The notes under the pieces were generated by a model. It was not told where the DNA came from and did no database searches. It saw only the letters and a program-made list of their open reading frames with translations. DNA of 6,417 nt from a virus (lineage: Duplodnaviria > Heunggongvirae > Uroviricota > Caudoviricetes): IMG/VR virus record IMGVR_UViG_2706794662_000009; one strand, 5' to 3'. A program made the position numbers and the translations under genes. Positions within the stretch are counted from its first letter, which is position 1. Every line of letters begins with the position of its first letter. Below, in pieces: positions 1-6,417 of this stretch.

Positions 1-86
1 CTCCAATGACTAGTCTAAAAACTAGTATTAAGACTATCACTTATTTAAGTGATACTGGTTGTCTGGAGATTCAGGGGGCCAGTCTA
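1..86 (-). mobile_element. Terminal 86 bp of an IS2 element (left end, IRL, adjacent to the insC/orfA start); element body extends leftward out of the window
   Basis: Positions 1-86 are, from my recall, the reverse complement of the IS2 left end (TAGACTGGCCCCCTGAATCTCCAGACAACCAATATCACTTAAATAAGTGATAGTCTTAATACTAGTTTTTAGACTAGTCATTGGAG), with one apparent mismatch near position 55. In IS2 the insC start follows a few bp beyond the last matching base, so it would lie just outside the window. Not verified by alignment. Confidence 0.75.
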
Positions 87-235: not shown

Positions 236-1345
236 TCACTCTGTTTCTGCTATCCATTCCGGGATTTTTGCCTCAAGCTCAAGCTGCGTGGTAAAGCCGC
301 TGTTATCAATGGTGTGCTCGGCTTTTGCAATAATCCAGTCCTGATTATCAATCTCGCTTTTAAATCCTGTTACCGTGCCATGCATTTCGGGGTAGAGTTC
401 TGCACGTCCATGCGCCAGTGTGATGGAGAATGATGCGGCTCCGCGTTGTAGCTGCTGCCACTTTGCCGCCGCTGCACGTCTTGCTGCCTGCTCGTTCTGA
501 TAAGTTTTGCGTAACACAAACACGTTGCCTTCCGCACCTTCCATATAGTCGCCTTCCCGGCTGCTGCTTTTCTCCTTTTTTGGTTTTGACGGTTTGCGGC
601 GTTTCACGCTGACTTTTTTCTTTTTCCCGTAATTAAGATCAAGCCAGTAAGCGCGTACCCCCGTATACGCTTCGCGGTCAGCAATGCGGAACTGATGGCG
701 ATCGCCGCTGCTGCGTGTGATGGCGAACGAGGGCAACGGCTGGCCCTGTGCGTTCACGCCACCACCGGGCATGATGAATAACAGATTACCGCTTTTTACC
801 GTGGTGATTGCGCCCAGCATTTCCGCCATGCGCGTAAGGAAGGACATGTCGCTTTCTTCGGTCTGGTCGGCGTGGTCGATTTCGATATCCATCAGCATTT
901 CGCTGATTTGCGGTTTCAGACCATACCGATGAGCGATGGCGGATACCACACGCTCAACGGTCACATCATGCCAGGACACCTCACGTTTAACGTTAAATTC
1001 AGCCCGAAAATCTGCGCTTCTGGCTGAAACAGTCAGCCTGTCCGGCGGTCCTTCGTGAGCGATTTCATCAACAATGTAAGTGCCTTTTTCTGTCAGCGGT
1101 TCTCCCTTCCAGCCAATGAGAACCGTCAGGCGCGCGCCCCGTGGCGGTAGCTGCAACTGACCATCCGCATCATCCAGCGTGATGGTGAGCTGGTCCGCCT
1201 CAAATCCCCGGTTGTCGGTCAGTGACAGGCTCATCAGGCGCTCTGCCACGCCTGACAGCGTTTTACCCTCCGCGAGAATATCAAAATCCGGCATTTTCAC
1301 GGGGTCTGTGCCCTGACTGAGCAATTGCATGGTGGTGTCGGTCAT
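236..1345 (-). CDS. D: Phage tail protein D (P2 gpD / late control gene D family)
   Basis: Minus-strand ORF whose product (MTDTTMQLLSQGTDPVKMPDFDILAEGK...SLSLTDNRGFEADQLTITLDDADG...EGDYMEGAEGNVF...GFTTQLELEAK) resembles P2 gpD as I recall it, including a lysine-rich linker (KKKKVSVKRRKPSKPKKEK). Start chosen at the ATG at 1345, which follows GGGAGGGAG on the minus strand. The longer 413-aa ORF (start 1477) has a Pro/Ser/Thr/Arg-rich N-extension with no RBS. Stop TGA at 238-236. Confidence 0.88.
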   Translation of the reverse strand: MTDTTMQLLSQGTDPVKMPDFDILAEGKTLSGVAERLMSLSLTDNRGFEADQLTITLDDADGQLQLPPRGARLTVLIGWKGEPLTEKGTYIVDEIAHEGPPDRLTVSARSADFRAEFNVKREVSWHDVTVERVVSAIAHRYGLKPQISEMLMDIEIDHADQTEESDMSFLTRMAEMLGAITTVKSGNLLFIMPGGGVNAQGQPLPSFAITRSSGDRHQFRIADREAYTGVRAYWLDLNYGKKKKVSVKRRKPSKPKKEKSSSREGDYMEGAEGNVFVLRKTYQNEQAARRAAAAKWQQLQRGAASFSITLAHGRAELYPEMHGTVTGFKSEIDNQDWIIAKAEHTIDNSGFTTQLELEAKIPEWIAETE

Positions 1346-1502
1346 CTGCTCCCTCCCTGTGTGGCATGGTCGCATGTGCGTGCGGAGGGGGTTACTGCTT
1401 TTTGTTGTCGCCGTGGCGGGAGAATGGCGCAGGGGTGAGATTACGCGCGTGGTGGGTGATGATTGTTGCCGAATCATTTAACGGATACAAGGGGTTGAAG
1501 CT
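1346..1502. promoter_or_regulatory. Divergent intergenic region between D (leftward) and FI (rightward); presumed to contain promoters for both
   Basis: 157-bp non-coding spacer between two divergently oriented start codons. Contains the dyad ATGATT-N7-AATCAT (1459-1477), about 25-45 bp upstream of the FI ATG. No TGT-N12-ACA (P2 Ogr-type activator site) found by eye. No -10/-35 elements assigned. Confidence 0.3.
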
Positions 1503-2687
1503 ATGAGTGAAACTCGTTTTCATGGTGCCCGTGTTACGGAAAATACCGACCTGGTAACAGCGATTAACGATGTTGATTCCAGCGTTATCGGTATCGTGGC
1601 AACGGCGGATGATGCGGACGCGGAGCTGTTCCCGCTGAACAAGCCCACACTGCTGCCCCGCGTCAATGACGTGCTGGGAAAATGCGGAACAACGGGGACG
1701 CTTTATCGTGCGCTTAAGGCCATCGCAGACCAGGTGAGCACAAAGGTGATCGTCGTTCGCGTGGCTGAACACAAAGAAGAAGACGGAAAAACGCAGGATC
1801 AACTGGTTATCGGTGGTTCTGAATCTGACGGCAGCTATACGGGGATGTATGCGCTGCTTGTTGCAGAGCAGGATGAAAGCATCGGATACCGTCCGCGTAT
1901 TCTGGCCGCGCCGGAGCTGGACACGGAGGCGGTGACAAAATCCCTGTGCGTGATTGCGGGTAAACTGCGCGCGTTTGTGTATGCCTCATGTCATGACTGT
2001 AACACGATGGCTGAGGCAATTACCTACCGCCAGAAATTCAACGAACGTGAGGTGATGCTCTTATGGCCGGACTTCATCGCCTACAACCCGAAAAGTGGCA
2101 AAAACGAAACGTTCCCCGCGCCTGCCTATGCGTGCGGCCTTCGTGCGTACATTGACCATGAGCAGGGCTGGCACAAATCGCTGTCCAACGTTCCGGTTAA
2201 AAATGTGCTGGGGATGTCCAGGCATGTGTTCTGGTCGTTGCAGGCCGAAGACAGTGATGCCAACAGCCTCAACAACAAAGAAATCACGACCATTATTCGT
2301 CGCAACGGGTTCCGCTTCTGGGGCAACCGCACACCGGAAACGAACGCCTACATCTTTGAGGTGTATACCCGAACCGCACAGGTGCTGGCTGATTCAATTG
2401 CGGAAGCGCAGTTTGAAACCATCGACAGTCCACTGACGCCTGCGAACGTGAAGGATGTTATCGGTGCCATCAGGGCAAAACTGGATTCACTGGTTACTGC
2501 CGGGAAACTGATTGGGGCGTCGTGCTGGTATGACGTGGTGGATAACGGCACCACGAATTTACGTCAGGGGCGCGTGCGTATTCGCTACAAATATACGCCT
2601 GTTCCCCCGCTGGAAGACATGGAGCTTTACCAGTCGTTTACTGATGAATTCTTTGGTCCCGCATTTGCGGTGCTGGGAGGTGCCTGA
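1503..2687 (+). CDS. FI: Contractile tail sheath protein (P2 gpFI family)
   Basis: 394-aa ORF. Motifs such as DADAELFPLNKP, KLRAFVY, WPDF, EQGWHKSLSNV, IRRNGFRFWGNRT, YTRTAQV and YKYTPVPPLE match my recollection of P2 FI and other sheath proteins. AAGGGG RBS 8 nt upstream of the ATG. Stop TGA overlaps the FII start. Confidence 0.92.
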   Translation: MSETRFHGARVTENTDLVTAINDVDSSVIGIVATADDADAELFPLNKPTLLPRVNDVLGKCGTTGTLYRALKAIADQVSTKVIVVRVAEHKEEDGKTQDQLVIGGSESDGSYTGMYALLVAEQDESIGYRPRILAAPELDTEAVTKSLCVIAGKLRAFVYASCHDCNTMAEAITYRQKFNEREVMLLWPDFIAYNPKSGKNETFPAPAYACGLRAYIDHEQGWHKSLSNVPVKNVLGMSRHVFWSLQAEDSDANSLNNKEITTIIRRNGFRFWGNRTPETNAYIFEVYTRTAQVLADSIAEAQFETIDSPLTPANVKDVIGAIRAKLDSLVTAGKLIGASCWYDVVDNGTTNLRQGRVRIRYKYTPVPPLEDMELYQSFTDEFFGPAFAVLGGA

Positions 2688-3199
2688 TGGCTGTACCAAA
2701 ACATCTTCGCTTTTTTACGCTGTTTGTGGATGGTGAAAACGAAGTGGGTAAGGTGACGTCCGTCACTCTGCCTAAGCTGACGCGCAAAACCGACAGCTAC
2801 CGGGGTGGTGGCATGATGGGAGCGGTAAGTATTGATCTCGGCCTGGATGACTCCGCGCTTGATGCGAGCTTTGTCATGGGGGGCGCAGTTCGTGAGCTGT
2901 TCCTTAAGTATGGCGGCACGATTGACGGTACGCTGCTGCGTTTTGCGGGTGAATACTACACCGACGCTGAAAGCGACCTGTATGAAGTCGAAATGCGCGG
3001 ACGTGTGACGGAAATTGATATGGGGGAAGCCAAACAGGGCGAAGCCACATCACACACTTACGCCATTAAAAACACCTACTACAAGCTGAGTGTTAACGAT
3101 CGCCCGTTGTGGGAGATTGACCTGCTGAACTTCATTTACCGGAAGGACGGCAGGGACATTGTGCCCGATCGCATCCGTTCCGCGCTCGGGCTTGGCTGA
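2687..3199 (+). CDS. FII: Tail tube protein (P2 gpFII family)
   Basis: 170-aa ORF immediately after the sheath gene, with ATGA start/stop overlap. Product resembles P2 FII (VTLPKLTRK..YRGGGM..DLGLDD..RFAG..VEMRGR..KQGE). GGGAGGTG RBS upstream. Size and position are typical for a tube gene. Confidence 0.88.
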   Translation: MAVPKHLRFFTLFVDGENEVGKVTSVTLPKLTRKTDSYRGGGMMGAVSIDLGLDDSALDASFVMGGAVRELFLKYGGTIDGTLLRFAGEYYTDAESDLYEVEMRGRVTEIDMGEAKQGEATSHTYAIKNTYYKLSVNDRPLWEIDLLNFIYRKDGRDIVPDRIRSALGLG

Positions 3200-3253: not shown

Positions 3254-3579
3254 ATGAAAGAGACGAAAAACATCGATACCGAAAACACGGTCGTTGCTGA
3301 CACTGTGAAAGAAACCAGTGAGCGTGGCGTAAAACTTACCCAACCAATTGAGCGAGGCGGCGAAAAAATCACGTATGTGGAGATCACCGGGGCTATTGAG
3401 CAGGCTGGATCTCTGCGAGATTTGTCGCTGTCTGATGTGCTGAATTTGAAAGCGGAATCCATGTTTACGCTGCTGTCACGCGTGACATCACCGCGACTGG
3501 ATGAAGTGACGATCAAAAAAATGGCATCCCGTGACTTTATTCAGTTATGTGTGGTTGCCGTAAATTTTTTGAGCGGTGC
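3254..3579 (+). CDS. E: Tail assembly chaperone E (P2 gpE family), 3' end lost in the assembly gap; encodes the E/E' frameshift site
   Basis: ORF starts at ATG 3254 with AAAGGAG RBS (3241-3247). It sits between tube and tape measure, the conserved position of the chaperone pair. Contains the slippery heptamer T-TTT-TTG at 3565-3571 in the correct phase. Sequence similarity to P2 E is weak from memory; the call rests mainly on synteny and the frameshift motif. Confidence 0.72.
3565..3571 (+). other. Putative programmed -1 ribosomal frameshift site (T TTT TTG) producing the E' extension
   Basis: In the E reading frame the codons are AAT TTT TTG, giving the heptamer T_TTT_TTG, the slippery sequence described for P2 E/E' and analogous to lambda G/GT. 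The -1 frame is open up to the gap. Confidence 0.6.
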
Positions 3580-3839
3580 NNNNNNNNNNNNNNNNNNNNN
3601 NNNNNNNNNNNNNNNNNNNNNNNNNNNNNNNNNNNNNNNNNNNNNNNNNNNNNNNNNNNNNNNNNNNNNNNNNNNNNNNNNNNNNNNNNNNNNNNNNNNN
3701 NNNNNNNNNNNNNNNNNNNNNNNNNNNNNNNNNNNNNNNNNNNNNNNNNNNNNNNNNNNNNNNNNNNNNNNNNNNNNNNNNNNNNNNNNNNNNNNNNNNN
3801 NNNNNNNNNNNNNNNNNNNNNNNNNNNNNNNNNNNNNNN
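3580..3839. other. Assembly gap or masked sequence (260 N)
   Basis: Uninterrupted run of N. Gap length may be an estimate, so reading-frame continuity across it is unreliable. Confidence 0.99.
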
Positions 3840-3840
3840 C

Positions 3841-6300
3841 CTGATGGGGCAGTTTGGTGACTCCATCCAGCGAACGCAGGGGGCGATCAAAAATCTCGAG
3901 CGTCAGGCGCGTTCATTTGAGCGCGCCCGTGACGCTGTCAGTAAAGCGGATGCGGGCATCGTGAAAGCACGACGCCAGCTTAACGCCCTTAATCAGTTAC
4001 AACGCACGGGTACAGTGCTCAGCGAAAAACAACAAAAGCTGATGCAGCAGTTAAGCACCCGGCTTGAACGCCTGAATGAATCGCGCACACGGGAAATTCA
4101 GAAAATGCGGGAACTTGGCGGAGAGCTGAAACGCCACGGCATTTCCCTGACAGGCAGCGATAACACCATCCAGCAGGCCATCAGACGCACCGGACAATAC
4201 AACAACCAGCTTGAACGCGAACGGCGGGCGCTTGCGCGTGTAACGCAGGCGCGTGAGCGGTATTCACGCGCGCAGGAAACAGCGGGAAAACTGAAAACAG
4301 GTGGTGCGCTGGCAACAGGTGCGGCGGCAGCGGGCGGCTATGCTGCCGGGCGTTTTTTGCAGCCCGCTATCGGGTTCGGGAAAGAGATGTCCCGTGTTCA
4401 GGCACTGACGCGAATCGATAAAAACAGCCCGCAGTTTAAGGCGCTGCGTGAGCAGGCGTTAAAACTTGGCTCTGAAACGCAGTTCACCGCAGGCGATGCC
4501 GCCAGTGGACAGGCATTTCTTGCAATGGCTGGTTTCACACCGCAGGCCATTCAGGCTGCGCTTCCCGGCGTGCTGAGCATGGCAACGGCTGGCGGTATGG
4601 ACCTCGGCGAGACGGCGGATATTGGTTCCAATATCCTGACGCAGTTCGGCCTCTCTGCTGACCAGATGGACCGGGTCGGTGACACACTTACCGCAGCGTT
4701 TACCCGTACCAACACTGACCTTCGCGCACTGGGCGAAACCATGAAATATGCAGGTCCGGTGGCGGGTAAGCTGGGAATATCGCTGGAGCAGGCCGCAGCG
4801 ATGGCGGGCGTGCTGGCGAAGATGGGTATCAGGGGGAGTGATGCAGGTACAGCGTTGCGTAAAAGCCTGGCCAATCTGTCATCACCGCCAAAGGCAGCGG
4901 CAGAAGCACTGAAAGAGCTGGGGGTGTCAGTTGCTGACGCCAAAGGCAAAATGCGCCCGATGGAGAATGTGCTGGCCGATCTCTATAAAGCCACCCGCAA
5001 ATACGGGGAGGTTGACCGGGTATCGTTCTTTAAGGACATTGCCGGAGAAGAGGCTTTCACATCATTTATGGGCCTCGTTGATGCGGCAGGTGACGGCTTC
5101 TTAGCCAAACTGAGAAAAGAACTTGAAGGCGCGCGCGGTGAGGCAGAACGCACGGCAAAGGTTATGGCCAATAACCTTGATGGCAACCTGAAATCACTCG
5201 GCAGTGCATGGGAAGGTCTGCGTATTCGCATCAGTGATCTGGTTGACGGTCCGCTGCGTTCTGTCACGCAGTGGCTCACGCGGGTTGTCTCAAAGGTGAC
5301 GGCGCTGGCGCAGGCCCACCCGGCACTGACGCGCCAGTTACTGATAGCGGGAGGCGCACTGCTGGCGACAACAGCAACGGTTGGTTCGTTGTCTCTGGTT
5401 ATTGGGGTGCTTCACGGGAAGCTGGCTACGTTGCGTCTCGGTTTTTCTCTCCTGACCGAATCAATGAATGTTGTCAGGGTTCTGCCTGCATTATGGGGAA
5501 TGGTGACGGGTTCCGTTTCTTTACTTGGTGGCGCTATCGGGGCGCTGTTCAGTCCGGTTAGTCTTATCGTGGCTGCGCTTGCCGGAGCTGCCGTTCTTAT
5601 CTGGAAATACTGGGATCCCATCAGGGCATTTTTTGCCGGGGTGTTCAGCGGGATTATGGAAAGGCTGACCCCGTTGCGCGAAACCTTTGAACGGTTTGGC
5701 CCTGTTTTTGATGTCGTGCGCGATGGGATTATTCAGGTCTTTAACTGGTTTAAATCGCTGCTGTCACCGATGGAGTCCAGCAAGGAAACGCTGGATAAAT
5801 GTGCCAGTGCTGGCGAGATATTCGGTAACGTTCTTGGCGGTGCGTTACAACTTGTTCTGACACCTGCAAAAATGCTACTGGATACGCTGGCGTGGATACT
5901 TGAAAAACTTGGCGTCCTTCCGGATGAAGCGGAAAGGGCGCGCAAGAAAATCGAAGACGCACAGCGTGCGGCCATTCTTCAGGACAAGGTTGCCTTGCTT
6001 CAGGGGGACCTGGCGAAAATCAATCCGCCGAAGCCTGTGGAAAATGGCAATGGCACCGGAGGTGATAAACCCAAAGACAACAAACCGCTCACAGACAGCA
6101 ATACCGGGACGCTACGCAGACTCAGCAAAATTGCTGATAACACAGGTAAGCTGGTTGATGAGACGAAAAAACGCATTGGCCCCGGCGATATTGTCTTTAA
6201 GAACCTGCCCCGCGCACTTGCTGTTCGTGGGGAGTGGCAGGAGCGGAAGATTGCGCAGGTCAGTAAGCCTGCCCCCGCAATTAATATCACACTGAGGTAG
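3841..6300 (+). CDS. T: Tail tape measure protein (P2 gpT family), 5' end in gap; 3' end runs into an IS element and is probably truncated
   Basis: About 820 visible codons. N-terminal part is charged and helical (Q/R/E/L-rich), followed by a Gly/Ala-rich region and hydrophobic segments (about 5320-5600), then a C-terminal region, all typical of tape measure proteins. Located after FI-FII-E as in P2. Start is either inside the gap or at ATG 3844. The last two codons and the TAG stop (6293-6300) lie within the inferred IS terminus. Confidence 0.88.
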   Translation: MMGQFGDSIQRTQGAIKNLERQARSFERARDAVSKADAGIVKARRQLNALNQLQRTGTVLSEKQQKLMQQLSTRLERLNESRTREIQKMRELGGELKRHGISLTGSDNTIQQAIRRTGQYNNQLERERRALARVTQARERYSRAQETAGKLKTGGALATGAAAAGGYAAGRFLQPAIGFGKEMSRVQALTRIDKNSPQFKALREQALKLGSETQFTAGDAASGQAFLAMAGFTPQAIQAALPGVLSMATAGGMDLGETADIGSNILTQFGLSADQMDRVGDTLTAAFTRTNTDLRALGETMKYAGPVAGKLGISLEQAAAMAGVLAKMGIRGSDAGTALRKSLANLSSPPKAAAEALKELGVSVADAKGKMRPMENVLADLYKATRKYGEVDRVSFFKDIAGEEAFTSFMGLVDAAGDGFLAKLRKELEGARGEAERTAKVMANNLDGNLKSLGSAWEGLRIRISDLVDGPLRSVTQWLTRVVSKVTALAQAHPALTRQLLIAGGALLATTATVGSLSLVIGVLHGKLATLRLGFSLLTESMNVVRVLPALWGMVTGSVSLLGGAIGALFSPVSLIVAALAGAAVLIWKYWDPIRAFFAGVFSGIMERLTPLRETFERFGPVFDVVRDGIIQVFNWFKSLLSPMESSKETLDKCASAGEIFGNVLGGALQLVLTPAKMLLDTLAWILEKLGVLPDEAERARKKIEDAQRAAILQDKVALLQGDLAKINPPKPVENGNGTGGDKPKDNKPLTDSNTGTLRRLSKIADNTGKLVDETKKRIGPGDIVFKNLPRALAVRGEWQERKIAQVSKPAPAINITLR

Positions 6301-6417
6301 CCTGAGTTTAACGGACACTCCTTCCTGAAATAGAATGGCATCAGAAGGAGCTAATAATGAGCAGAAAAACCCAACGTTACTCTAAAGAGTTCAAAGCCGA
6401 AGCTGTCAGAACGGTTC
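6293..6417 (+). mobile_element. Left end of an IS3-family insertion sequence (IS600-like), extending rightward out of the window
   Basis: Begins TGAGGTAGCCTGAGTTTAACGGACAC, which has the TG start and a GGACAC block at the same offset as the IS3 terminal repeat as I recall it. An orfA start follows 64 bp inside, the usual spacing for IS3-family elements. Exact boundary is uncertain by a few bp. Confidence 0.75.
6357..6417 (+). CDS. IS3-family transposase OrfA (helix-turn-helix N-terminal protein), 5' fragment; continues beyond the window
   Basis: Translation MSRKTQRYSKEFKAEAVRTV matches my recollection of the IS600 OrfA N-terminus. GGAG RBS at 6344-6347. Confidence 0.8.
   Translation, partial: MSRKTQRYSKEFKAEAVRTV

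What the first reader, a model, noticed from the sequence alone, without database searches (positions are those of the whole stretch)
3547..3579. Conserved -1 frameshift heptamer in the chaperone gene just before the gap
T_TTT_TTG sits in the exact phase needed for -1 slippage, in the gene between tube and tape measure. This is the hallmark of the E/E' (lambda G/GT-like) tail chaperone pair. It supports the gene assignment and suggests the module once made both chaperone forms.
Basis: partly seen in the sequence, partly recalled or inferred. Interest (0 to 1): 0.4.

Follow-up and report, generated by a model that had tools for sequence, protein, structure and literature searches.

The report
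P2-type tail chaperone frameshift site
The T_TTT_TTG run is the well-known ribosome slip site that lets P2-like phages make two tail-assembly chaperones from one gene; here it sits, intact, in a prophage tail module already wrecked by insertion sequences, so it is real but ordinary.

Summary
Confirmed and ordinary. T_TTT_TTG lies at 3565-3571 in the phase needed for a -1 tandem slip (codons AAT TTT TTG of the ORF starting at 3254). That ORF sits between the tube gene and the tape-measure gene.

The N-run (3580-3839) hides the decisive part. Thirteen public contigs that match the window exactly next to the N-run carry one identical 264-nt fill; six of them were checked at 100% identity on both flanks. 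With that fill, the 0 frame stops 15 codons after the heptamer (E, 121 aa). The -1 frame stays open for 70 codons (E+E', 176 aa), matches Pfam Phage_P2_GpE (1.3e-12), and ends 14 nt inside the tape-measure gene.

E+E' aligns over both parts with the annotated E+E' of the P2-like phage L-413C (30% identity, 3e-24). In 69 of 71 distinct relatives from IMG/VR, an in-phase slippery heptamer occupies the same place. Its sequence varies (T_TTT_TTG, C_CCT_TTC, A_AAT_TTT, T_TTT_TTA).

TTTTTTG alone is not diagnostic: it occurs five times in the window, once in phase inside the tape-measure gene. No stimulatory RNA structure was found, as reported for P2.

The module here is dead: IS600 cuts the tape-measure gene and IS2 flanks gpD. 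The N-run is 4 nt shorter than every fill, so the apparent chaperone-to-tape-measure ORF is probably an artefact of its length.

The parts
3254..3579 (+). 5' part (108 complete codons) of the gpE-like tail assembly chaperone gene. It continues into the N-run; the full length is 121 aa in identical relatives.
   Evidence: ORF and AAGGAG ribosome-binding site. PHROG 103 'tail protein' 1.8e-35. Weak Pfam PF10109 Phage_TAC_7 hit, 17.7 bits, below the cut-off of 25. BLASTP against L-413C E+E' gives 3e-24.
3565..3571 (+). Slippery heptamer T_TTT_TTG, in phase for a -1 tandem slip (P site TTT, A site TTG).
   Evidence: Same heptamer and same alignment column as the P2-like phage L-413C, SEN5 and Burkholderia phi52237. 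P2 shifts at TTTTTTG.
3562..3568 (+). Overlapping second in-phase heptamer A_AAT_TTT. It is the only canonical heptamer left in the phage 503458 clade.
3580..3839 (.). Run of 260 N. By proxy it hides the last 15 codons of E, almost all of the 70-codon -1 extension E', and the first 25 codons of the tape-measure gene. Relatives have 264 nt here.
3840..6292 (+). Tape-measure gene from the last base of codon 25 to codon 842 of 935, cut by IS600.
   Evidence: PF10145 1.1e-57. Homology to full-length relatives stops at 6292. The reconstructed product is 844 aa.
2687..3199 (+). Tail tube gene (FII type), upstream neighbour of the chaperone gene.
   Evidence: PF04985 1.9e-46.
1503..2687 (+). Tail sheath gene (FI type).
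   Evidence: PF04984, PF22671 and PF17482.
236..1345 (-). gpD-like tail/baseplate hub gene, divergent from the sheath gene.
   Evidence: PF05954 5.1e-17. Called as 369 aa in relatives.
6293..6417 (+). Left end of IS600, inserted in the tape-measure gene.
   Evidence: 100% identical to IS600 copies on Shigella flexneri plasmids. The junction is absent from 5,426 complete E. coli genomes.
1..86 (-). End of an IS3-family insertion sequence (IS2 by my recollection of its terminal sequence), downstream of gpD.
   Evidence: Homology to uninterrupted relatives starts at 85. L007 and L008 carry HTH_Tnp_1 and rve genes at this place. The junction is absent from complete E. coli genomes.

Best explanation
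This is the programmed -1 ribosomal frameshift site of a P2-family (Peduoviridae, Xuanwuvirus-like) tail assembly chaperone gene. It is the counterpart of P2 E/E+E' and lambda G/GT.

Most ribosomes read the chaperone gene in the 0 frame and stop 15 codons after the heptamer, giving E (121 aa).

A minority slip. With tRNA-Phe on TTT in the P site and tRNA-Leu on TTG in the A site, they move back one base onto TTT TTT. They then read GAG and 69 further codons in the -1 frame. This gives E+E' (176 aa), whose C-terminal part is the P2 GpE domain and whose stop overlaps the start of the tape-measure gene.

By analogy with lambda, the shared N-terminal part binds the tape-measure protein and the frameshift-specific part recruits the tube protein. 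Neither protein ends up in the virion.

Shown here: the phase, the frame layout in identical relatives, homology of both parts, and conservation of slipperiness. Inferred: that slippage actually occurs, its rate, and the protein functions.

In this genome the site is an intact relic inside a module disabled by IS600 and flanked by IS2.
For: Phase and position.

Gene order sheath, tube, chaperone, tape measure.

Gap proxy: 13 loci share an identical 264-nt fill. The 0 frame stops after 15 codons and the -1 frame is open for 70 codons.

The -1 extension hits PF06528 at 1.3e-12 and PHROG 1756 at 2.1e-38.

E+E' aligns end to end with L-413C E+E', annotated as a -1 frameshift product (30% identity, 3e-24). 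The slip sites fall in the same alignment column.

All 10 hand-checked phage relatives, at 29-87% identity, have an in-phase canonical heptamer in the frame overlap.

Of 71 distinct IMG/VR relatives, 69 have one 15-22 codons before the 0-frame stop, with 64-74 codons open in the -1 frame (one outlier at 469-470 has a 1-nt deletion joining E' to the tape-measure frame). The heptamer sequence varies but stays slippery: T_TTT_TTG, C_CCT_TTC, A_AAT_TTT, T_TTT_TTA, C_CCT_TTT.

In the -1 frame a GDG motif upstream of the GTG that PGAP uses as the E' start is shared by the closer relatives.

Literature: P2 shifts at TTTTTTG to give E (91 aa) and E+E' (142 aa), with no downstream hairpin (PMC3091744). 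Lambda G/GT roles and the roughly 30:1 ratio come from PMC5009743.
Against: The window's own sequence after 3579 is unknown. The N-run is 4 nt shorter than every fill. If that length is exact, the source carries a net frame-breaking deletion somewhere in E, E' or the tape-measure start.

No protein-level evidence exists for this lineage.

TTTTTTG occurs elsewhere in the window, once in phase.

The N-terminal domain misses the Pfam PF10109 cut-off and has no NCBIfam hit.

No stimulatory structure or upstream Shine-Dalgarno-like element was found. The efficiency cannot be estimated from sequence.
Confidence: 0.9

Rival explanations
1. E' is a separate small gene translated from its own GTG start, as RefSeq/PGAP annotates it ('GpE family phage tail protein', 51 aa). 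On this view the heptamer is irrelevant.
For: PGAP and other gene callers list a 51-aa CDS starting at a GTG 19 codons downstream of the heptamer.
Against: No Shine-Dalgarno-like sequence precedes that GTG (TGATCACGGTTGTG).

The -1 frame is open back to the heptamer in every relative, and a GDG motif upstream of the GTG is shared by the closer relatives.

The PHROG 1756 profile covers the extension from its first residue.

In P2-like L-413C the product is annotated as a joined E+E', and the P2 frameshift is cited as established.
Confidence: 0.04
2. The shift is made at the RNA level. RNA polymerase stutters on the T6 run and adds one U to a fraction of transcripts, which puts E' in frame without any ribosomal slippage.
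For: The site is a homopolymer run. Close relatives in IMG/VR differ in run length (T6, T7, T8), which shows that polymerases or sequencers slip here.
Against: Six T is short for efficient transcriptional slippage (general knowledge).

Eighteen distinct relatives use C_CCT_TTC and one uses G_GGA_AAG. These have no long homopolymer but are canonical tandem-slip heptamers in the correct codon phase.

Strict conservation of phase is expected for ribosomal slippage and not for transcriptional slippage.

The P2 case is cited as a translational frameshift.
Confidence: 0.04
3. The heptamer is a chance run of T in a decayed gene and nothing is recoded.
For: TTTTTTG occurs 5 times in 6.4 kb, and a second in-phase copy lies in the tape-measure gene. 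The module is defective.
Against: The control copy at 4353 has only 20 open -1 codons and sits 23% of the way into its gene.

The chaperone copy is followed by a 70-codon ORF bearing a Pfam domain.

It is conserved in place across relatives down to about 30% identity, with substitutions that keep it slippery.
Confidence: 0.02

Closest known systems
Bacteriophage P2 E / E+E' (FETUD operon; Christie et al. 2002, as cited in PMC3091744) and its near-twin in Yersinia phage L-413C
   Same: Same heptamer, TTTTTTG, in the same phase and the same alignment column.

Same gene position between the tube (FII) and tape-measure (T) genes.

The -1 extension carries the same Pfam domain (PF06528) and overlaps the start of T.

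No downstream hairpin.
   Different: Only 30% identical.

E is 121 aa here against 91 aa. E+E' is 176 aa against 142 aa. The 0 frame runs 15 codons past the site against 6. The -1 extension is 70 codons against 57.

The N-terminal domain scores below the Pfam PF10109 cut-off.

A second overlapping heptamer, A_AAT_TTT, is present.

In this lineage the FI-FII-E-T-U block lies on the opposite strand to D, unlike P2's FETUD operon.
Phage lambda G / GT tail assembly chaperones (Levin 1993; Xu, Hendrix and Duda 2004, 2013, 2014, as summarised in PMC5009743)
   Same: Same logic. [quoted passage not shown]
   Different: No detectable sequence similarity was sought or found here.

Lambda is a siphovirus. 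By my recollection it slips at G_GGA_AAG. Here that heptamer was seen only in the Mannheimia relative.
E+E' of Burkholderia P2-like phages KS5, KS14 and KL3 (PMC3091744) and phi52237
   Same: A predicted frameshift at a conserved TTTTTTG without a hairpin. It was identified, as here, purely by comparison with P2.
   Different: Those are intact phages. This copy sits in an IS-disrupted prophage remnant.

Membership tests
P2 gpE/gpE+E' (lambda G/GT-type) frameshifted tail assembly chaperone pair | The gene lies between the major tail/tube gene and the tape-measure gene. | tested here: met
   Tube gene 2687-3199 (PF04985), chaperone gene from 3254, tape-measure gene after the gap (PF10145).
P2 gpE/gpE+E' (lambda G/GT-type) frameshifted tail assembly chaperone pair | [quoted passage not shown] | tested here: met
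   T_TTT_TTG at 3565-3571, at codons 105-106 of 121 and 85% of the way into the gene. It is the same heptamer as in P2.
P2 gpE/gpE+E' (lambda G/GT-type) frameshifted tail assembly chaperone pair | The 0 frame stops shortly after the site. The -1 frame stays open for tens of codons and ends at or inside the start of the tape-measure gene. | tested here: met
   This cannot be read in the window itself because of the N-run. It is met in 13 loci with one identical 264-nt fill, six of them checked at 100% identity on both flanks. The 0-frame stop comes after 15 codons, the -1 frame is open for 70 codons, and the overlap with the tape-measure ATG is 14 nt.
P2 gpE/gpE+E' (lambda G/GT-type) frameshifted tail assembly chaperone pair | The frameshift-specific extension is homologous to P2 E'. 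| tested here: met
   PF06528 Phage_P2_GpE at 1.3e-12, 47.5 bits against a cut-off of 23. All 10 aligned relatives hit it. Tested on the proxy fill.
P2 gpE/gpE+E' (lambda G/GT-type) frameshifted tail assembly chaperone pair | The N-terminal (0-frame) part is homologous to gpE-type chaperones. | tested here: met
   BLASTP against L-413C E+E' aligns residues 23-105 with gpE residues 4-85 within a 3e-24 alignment. The motifs LRG and LLPR.T.P.L are conserved. PHROG 103 scores 1.8e-35. Pfam PF10109 alone is below its cut-off (17.7 against 25 bits) and NCBIfam gives nothing.
P2 gpE/gpE+E' (lambda G/GT-type) frameshifted tail assembly chaperone pair | Slipperiness at this position is conserved across diverged relatives. 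| tested here: met
   10 of 10 hand-checked phages. 69 of 71 distinct IMG/VR sequences. The two exceptions are T7 and T8 length variants of the same run.
P2 gpE/gpE+E' (lambda G/GT-type) frameshifted tail assembly chaperone pair | E' has no translation start of its own. | tested here: inconclusive
   No Shine-Dalgarno-like motif precedes the annotated GTG, and a GDG motif upstream of it in the -1 frame is shared by the closer relatives. Independent initiation cannot be excluded from sequence alone.
P2 gpE/gpE+E' (lambda G/GT-type) frameshifted tail assembly chaperone pair | Both proteins are made in a fixed ratio and both are needed for tail assembly. | not testable with these tools
   This needs protein detection and genetics in an intact relative.

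The most novel reading that the evidence does not exclude
The slip site may be a ten-base double site, A_AAT_TTT_TTG, on which ribosomes can shift at either of two adjacent codons. The two events would give products differing by one residue (Phe or Leu at position 106).

On this reading the functional site has moved by one codon between clades. The phage 503458 clade has lost T_TTT_TTG and keeps only A_AAT_TTT. That clade also has a predicted -19 kcal/mol hairpin just downstream, which the window's clade lacks.

A less likely alternative is that the 260-nt length of the N-run is exact. The source would then carry a net 4-nt deletion that puts the -1 frame in register with the tape-measure gene.
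Probability: 0.2. Interest if true: 0.25.

Novelty: already known. Interest (0 to 1): 0.1.

Why it matters
It matters little beyond annotation. It confirms the identity of the gene between the tube and tape-measure genes.

It also shows that the two adjacent CDSs that RefSeq calls 'phage tail protein' and 'GpE family phage tail protein' are best read as one frameshifted pair. This module, by DNA match over tube end to tape-measure start, was found in 1,375 of 5,426 complete E. coli genomes; the split annotation was seen in all 25 listed hits.

It warns that the long ORF running from the chaperone gene into the tape-measure gene is probably an artefact of the N-run's length.

Tried and rejected
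**Source genome.** Two exact-match scans of genome contigs with the tape-measure/IS600 junction and the IS2 junction found nothing. Neither junction exists in 5,426 complete E. coli genomes. Look-ups of the tube and gpD proteins returned only relatives without the IS600 insertion. The gap was therefore filled only by proxy.

**Stimulatory RNA.** The 50 and 105 nt after the heptamer fold no better than shuffles (z = 0.26 and -1.63). Rfam gave no match at E <= 1. No Shine-Dalgarno-like element lies upstream. The hairpin predicted in the 503458 clade (-19 kcal/mol, z = -1.85) shows no sequence variation among 16 loci, so covariation could not be tested.

**Structures and names.** A PDB profile search found nothing, and NCBIfam found nothing.

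**Literature.** The primary P2 paper (PMC135442) is not held. P2 facts are taken from PMC3091744.

**Repeats.** I looked for inverted repeats that could explain the inverted FI-U block in a relative. Only short, weak pairs turned up.

**Heptamer as sole evidence.** Rejected, because of the in-phase control copy at 4353.

Full report
**What is in the window**

The 6,417-base window holds a contractile-tail gene block.
- A gpD-like hub gene lies on the minus strand at 236-1345 (PF05954).
- On the plus strand come a sheath gene (1503-2687; PF04984, PF22671, PF17482) and a tube gene (2687-3199; PF04985, 1.9e-46).
- A small ORF starts at 3254 behind an AAGGAG ribosome-binding site and runs into a block of 260 N (3580-3839).
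- After the N-run comes a tape-measure gene (PF10145, 1.1e-57).

Homology to uninterrupted relatives begins at base 85 and stops at 6292.
- The last 125 bases are 100% identical to IS600.
- The first ~86 bases are the end of an IS3-family element. I recognise its terminal sequence as IS2, and relatives L007 and L008 carry the matching transposase genes at that spot.
- The tape-measure gene is therefore cut after codon 842 of 935. The tail module is no longer complete in this window.

**The observation**

The sequence before the gap reads GTA AAT TTT TTG AGC GGT GC in the frame of the ORF that starts at 3254. T_TTT_TTG therefore sits at 3565-3571 in the X_XXY_YYZ phase needed for a simultaneous -1 slip of the P-site and A-site tRNAs. 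An overlapping heptamer, A_AAT_TTT (3562-3568), is also in phase.

As a bare string the heptamer is not remarkable.
- TTTTTTG occurs five times in the window against 1.7 expected.
- The copy at 4353 is also in phase, inside the tape-measure gene.
- That control copy lies 23% of the way into its gene, with only 20 open codons in the -1 frame.
- In-phase canonical heptamers occur four times in the 1,411 codons of the other genes. About 0.08 would be expected by chance in the 27-codon stretch where the chaperone's 0 and -1 frames are both open.

The case therefore rests on context and conservation, not on the string.

**Filling the gap**

The source genome could not be found.
- Exact-match scans with both IS junctions returned nothing.
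- Neither junction occurs in 5,426 complete E. coli genomes.

Look-ups of the exact tube and gpD proteins did return useful NCBI contigs. Six of them (L003-L008) are 99.9-100% identical to the window on both sides of the gap, over 3,495-3,579 and 2,453 bases.

Among all fetched loci that contain both 40-nt anchors, 27 of 28 have exactly 264 nt between them, and 13 share one identical fill. With that fill:
- The 0 frame reads ...NFLSGADSGEKNEQATEA and stops 15 codons after the heptamer, giving E of 121 aa.
- The -1 frame is open for 70 codons after the slip, giving E+E' of 176 aa.
- The -1 frame ends in a TGA 14 nt downstream of the tape-measure ATG.

The extension is somewhat longer than the 40-60 codons guessed.

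**A caveat on the N-run**

The N-run is 260 long and every relative has 264 (one has 263). Because 260 is not a multiple of three, the mechanical ORF list shows a 917-codon 'ORF' from 3547 into the tape-measure gene. In the relatives the tape-measure gene is in the same frame as E, not in the -1 frame.

That long ORF is therefore an artefact, unless the source really carries a net 4-nt deletion. The flanks show no difference over about 6 kb from the intact relatives, so I think an imprecise gap length is much more likely. I cannot prove it.

**Homology**
- The -1 extension matches Pfam PF06528 (Phage_P2_GpE; 1.3e-12, 47.5 bits against a cut-off of 23) and PHROG 1756 (2.1e-38).
- The 0-frame protein matches PHROG 103 (1.8e-35). 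It matches Pfam PF10109 (Phage_TAC_7) only weakly, at 17.7 bits against a cut-off of 25.
- The reconstructed E+E' aligns over both parts with E+E' of the P2-like Yersinia phage L-413C (30% identity, 3e-24). That record annotates the product as a two-piece join made by a -1 frameshift.
- In a ten-member alignment of fusion proteins, at 29-87% identity to the window's, all ten hit PF06528 and nine hit PF10109. The slip site falls in the same column in eight of them.
- No solved structure or NCBIfam model matches.

**Conservation of the slip site**

All ten hand-checked phage relatives have an in-phase canonical heptamer in the zone where both frames are open:
- T_TTT_TTG in SEN5, Klebsiella Kp4860-2, L-413C and Burkholderia phi52237.
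- T_TTT_TTC in a Yersinia phage.
- T_TTT_TTT in a Vibrio phage.
- C_CCT_TTC in Klebsiella Kp4846-1.
- G_GGA_AAG in a Mannheimia phage.
- A_AAT_TTT in Escherichia phage 503458.

A scan of IMG/VR returned 80 relatives.
- Of the 71 distinct sequences my script could parse, 69 have such a heptamer 15-22 codons before the 0-frame stop, followed by 64-74 open -1 codons. One outlier, L026, reads 469-470 because a 1-nt deletion joins E' to the tape-measure frame.
- The two exceptions are run-length variants of the same site, T7 and T8 in place of T6.
- Four of the six loci that my motif filter missed were inspected by eye, and all carry the site as well.

The sequence changes while slipperiness and codon phase are kept. 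That is what selection for ribosomal slippage predicts. It argues against chance, and against transcriptional stuttering, which C_CCT_TTC or G_GGA_AAG could hardly support.

**Mechanism**

The best-supported account has three steps.
- tRNA-Phe on UUU and tRNA-Leu on UUG shift back one base onto UUU UUU.
- Decoding then resumes at GAG in the -1 frame.
- A minority of ribosomes do this and make E+E'. The rest make E.

I found no stimulatory element.
- The 50 nt after the site fold no better than shuffled sequence (z = 0.26).
- The 105-nt stretch gives z = -1.63, and its stable hairpins lie more than 50 nt away.
- Rfam finds nothing.
- This agrees with what is reported for P2 and its Burkholderia relatives (PMC3091744).

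Protein roles are inferred from lambda G/GT: the shared part binds the tape-measure protein and the frameshift-specific part recruits the tube subunit (PMC5009743).

**Rival readings**

RefSeq splits the pair into 'phage tail protein' and a 51-aa 'GpE family phage tail protein' starting at a GTG. That GTG has no Shine-Dalgarno-like sequence. In the -1 frame a GDG motif upstream of it is shared by the closer relatives. Independent initiation is therefore unlikely, though sequence alone does not exclude it.

**Comparison with what is known, and novelty**

P2 shifts at TTTTTTG to give E (91 aa) and E+E' (142 aa). The window's lineage has the same heptamer, phase, gene position, E' domain and overlap with the tape-measure gene. 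Both parts are longer and identity is only 30%.

The closest phage records belong to Peduoviridae, genus Xuanwuvirus. This DNA module, from the tube gene's end to the tape-measure start, occurs in 1,375 of 5,426 complete E. coli genomes.

This is a textbook feature in a common prophage family. It is already known in kind and is identified here by plain homology. Interest is low.

The only mildly new points are two.
- The window carries an overlapping double heptamer.
- The 503458 clade has lost T_TTT_TTG and retains only A_AAT_TTT, one codon upstream. That clade also has a predicted -19 kcal/mol hairpin that shows no variation, so covariation cannot be tested.

Noticed in passing
window 3580-3839: The N-run is 260 long, but 27 of 28 relatives with both anchors have 264 nt there, including 13 with one identical fill. 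As a result the mechanical ORF 3547..6300, which links the chaperone's -1 frame to the tape-measure gene, is probably an artefact. In relatives the tape-measure gene is in the same frame as E.
   Followed up: partly
window 6293-6417: An IS600 copy (100% identical to copies on Shigella flexneri virulence plasmids) cuts the tape-measure gene after codon 842 of 935. The junction is absent from all 5,426 complete E. coli genomes and from the GTDB representative genomes searched. This points to a Shigella-like, IS-rich source that I could not identify.
   Followed up: partly
window 1-86: The end of an IS3-family element (IS2 by its terminal sequence) lies about 150 nt downstream of the gpD gene. 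The same insertion is present in NCBI contigs L007 and L008 but in no complete E. coli genome.
   Followed up: partly
window 236-2687; L098 (E. coli DEC5A) 13137-20605; L099 (phage 503458): The sheath, tube, E, tape-measure and U block lies on the opposite strand to gpD and to all other late genes, next to a DNA invertase gene. This differs from P2's single FETUD operon. It appears to be the standard layout of Xuanwuvirus-like prophages. No convincing inverted repeats flank the block.
   Followed up: partly
L046, L029, L047 (IMG/VR), slip site at about 1443: Three closely related contigs carry T6, T7 and T8 at the slip site. T7 fuses E and E' into one continuous frame, and T8 stops E at once. 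These are either homopolymer sequencing errors or real length mutations at the slippery run.
   Followed up: no
L026 (IMG/VR) and L106 (UFYX01000005.1), within E': Single-base indels inside E'. In L026 a 1-nt deletion joins the E' frame to the tape-measure frame, leaving more than 469 open codons after the slip site. This is probably decay or sequencing error.
   Followed up: no
L009 924-980 and 15 further loci (phage 503458 clade): This clade has TTT ATG in place of TTT TTG, so only A_AAT_TTT remains slippery. A hairpin of about -19 kcal/mol is predicted starting a few bases downstream (z = -1.85), and the window's clade lacks it. The stretch does not vary among the loci, so covariation could not be tested.
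   Followed up: partly
window 4353-4359: A second T_TTT_TTG lies in the correct phase inside the tape-measure gene (codons CGT TTT TTG). The -1 frame stops after 20 codons. It serves as a natural negative control showing that the heptamer alone is not diagnostic.
   Followed up: yes
L100-L109, downstream of gpD: In the contigs closest to the window the tail block is part of a remnant next to ihfA-pheT-pheS. It is accompanied by a PIN-domain protein gene, an ogr/delta gene and a hok-like toxin gene. In E. coli DEC5A a complete P2-like prophage with the same tail block sits elsewhere, near fabB and flk.
   Followed up: no
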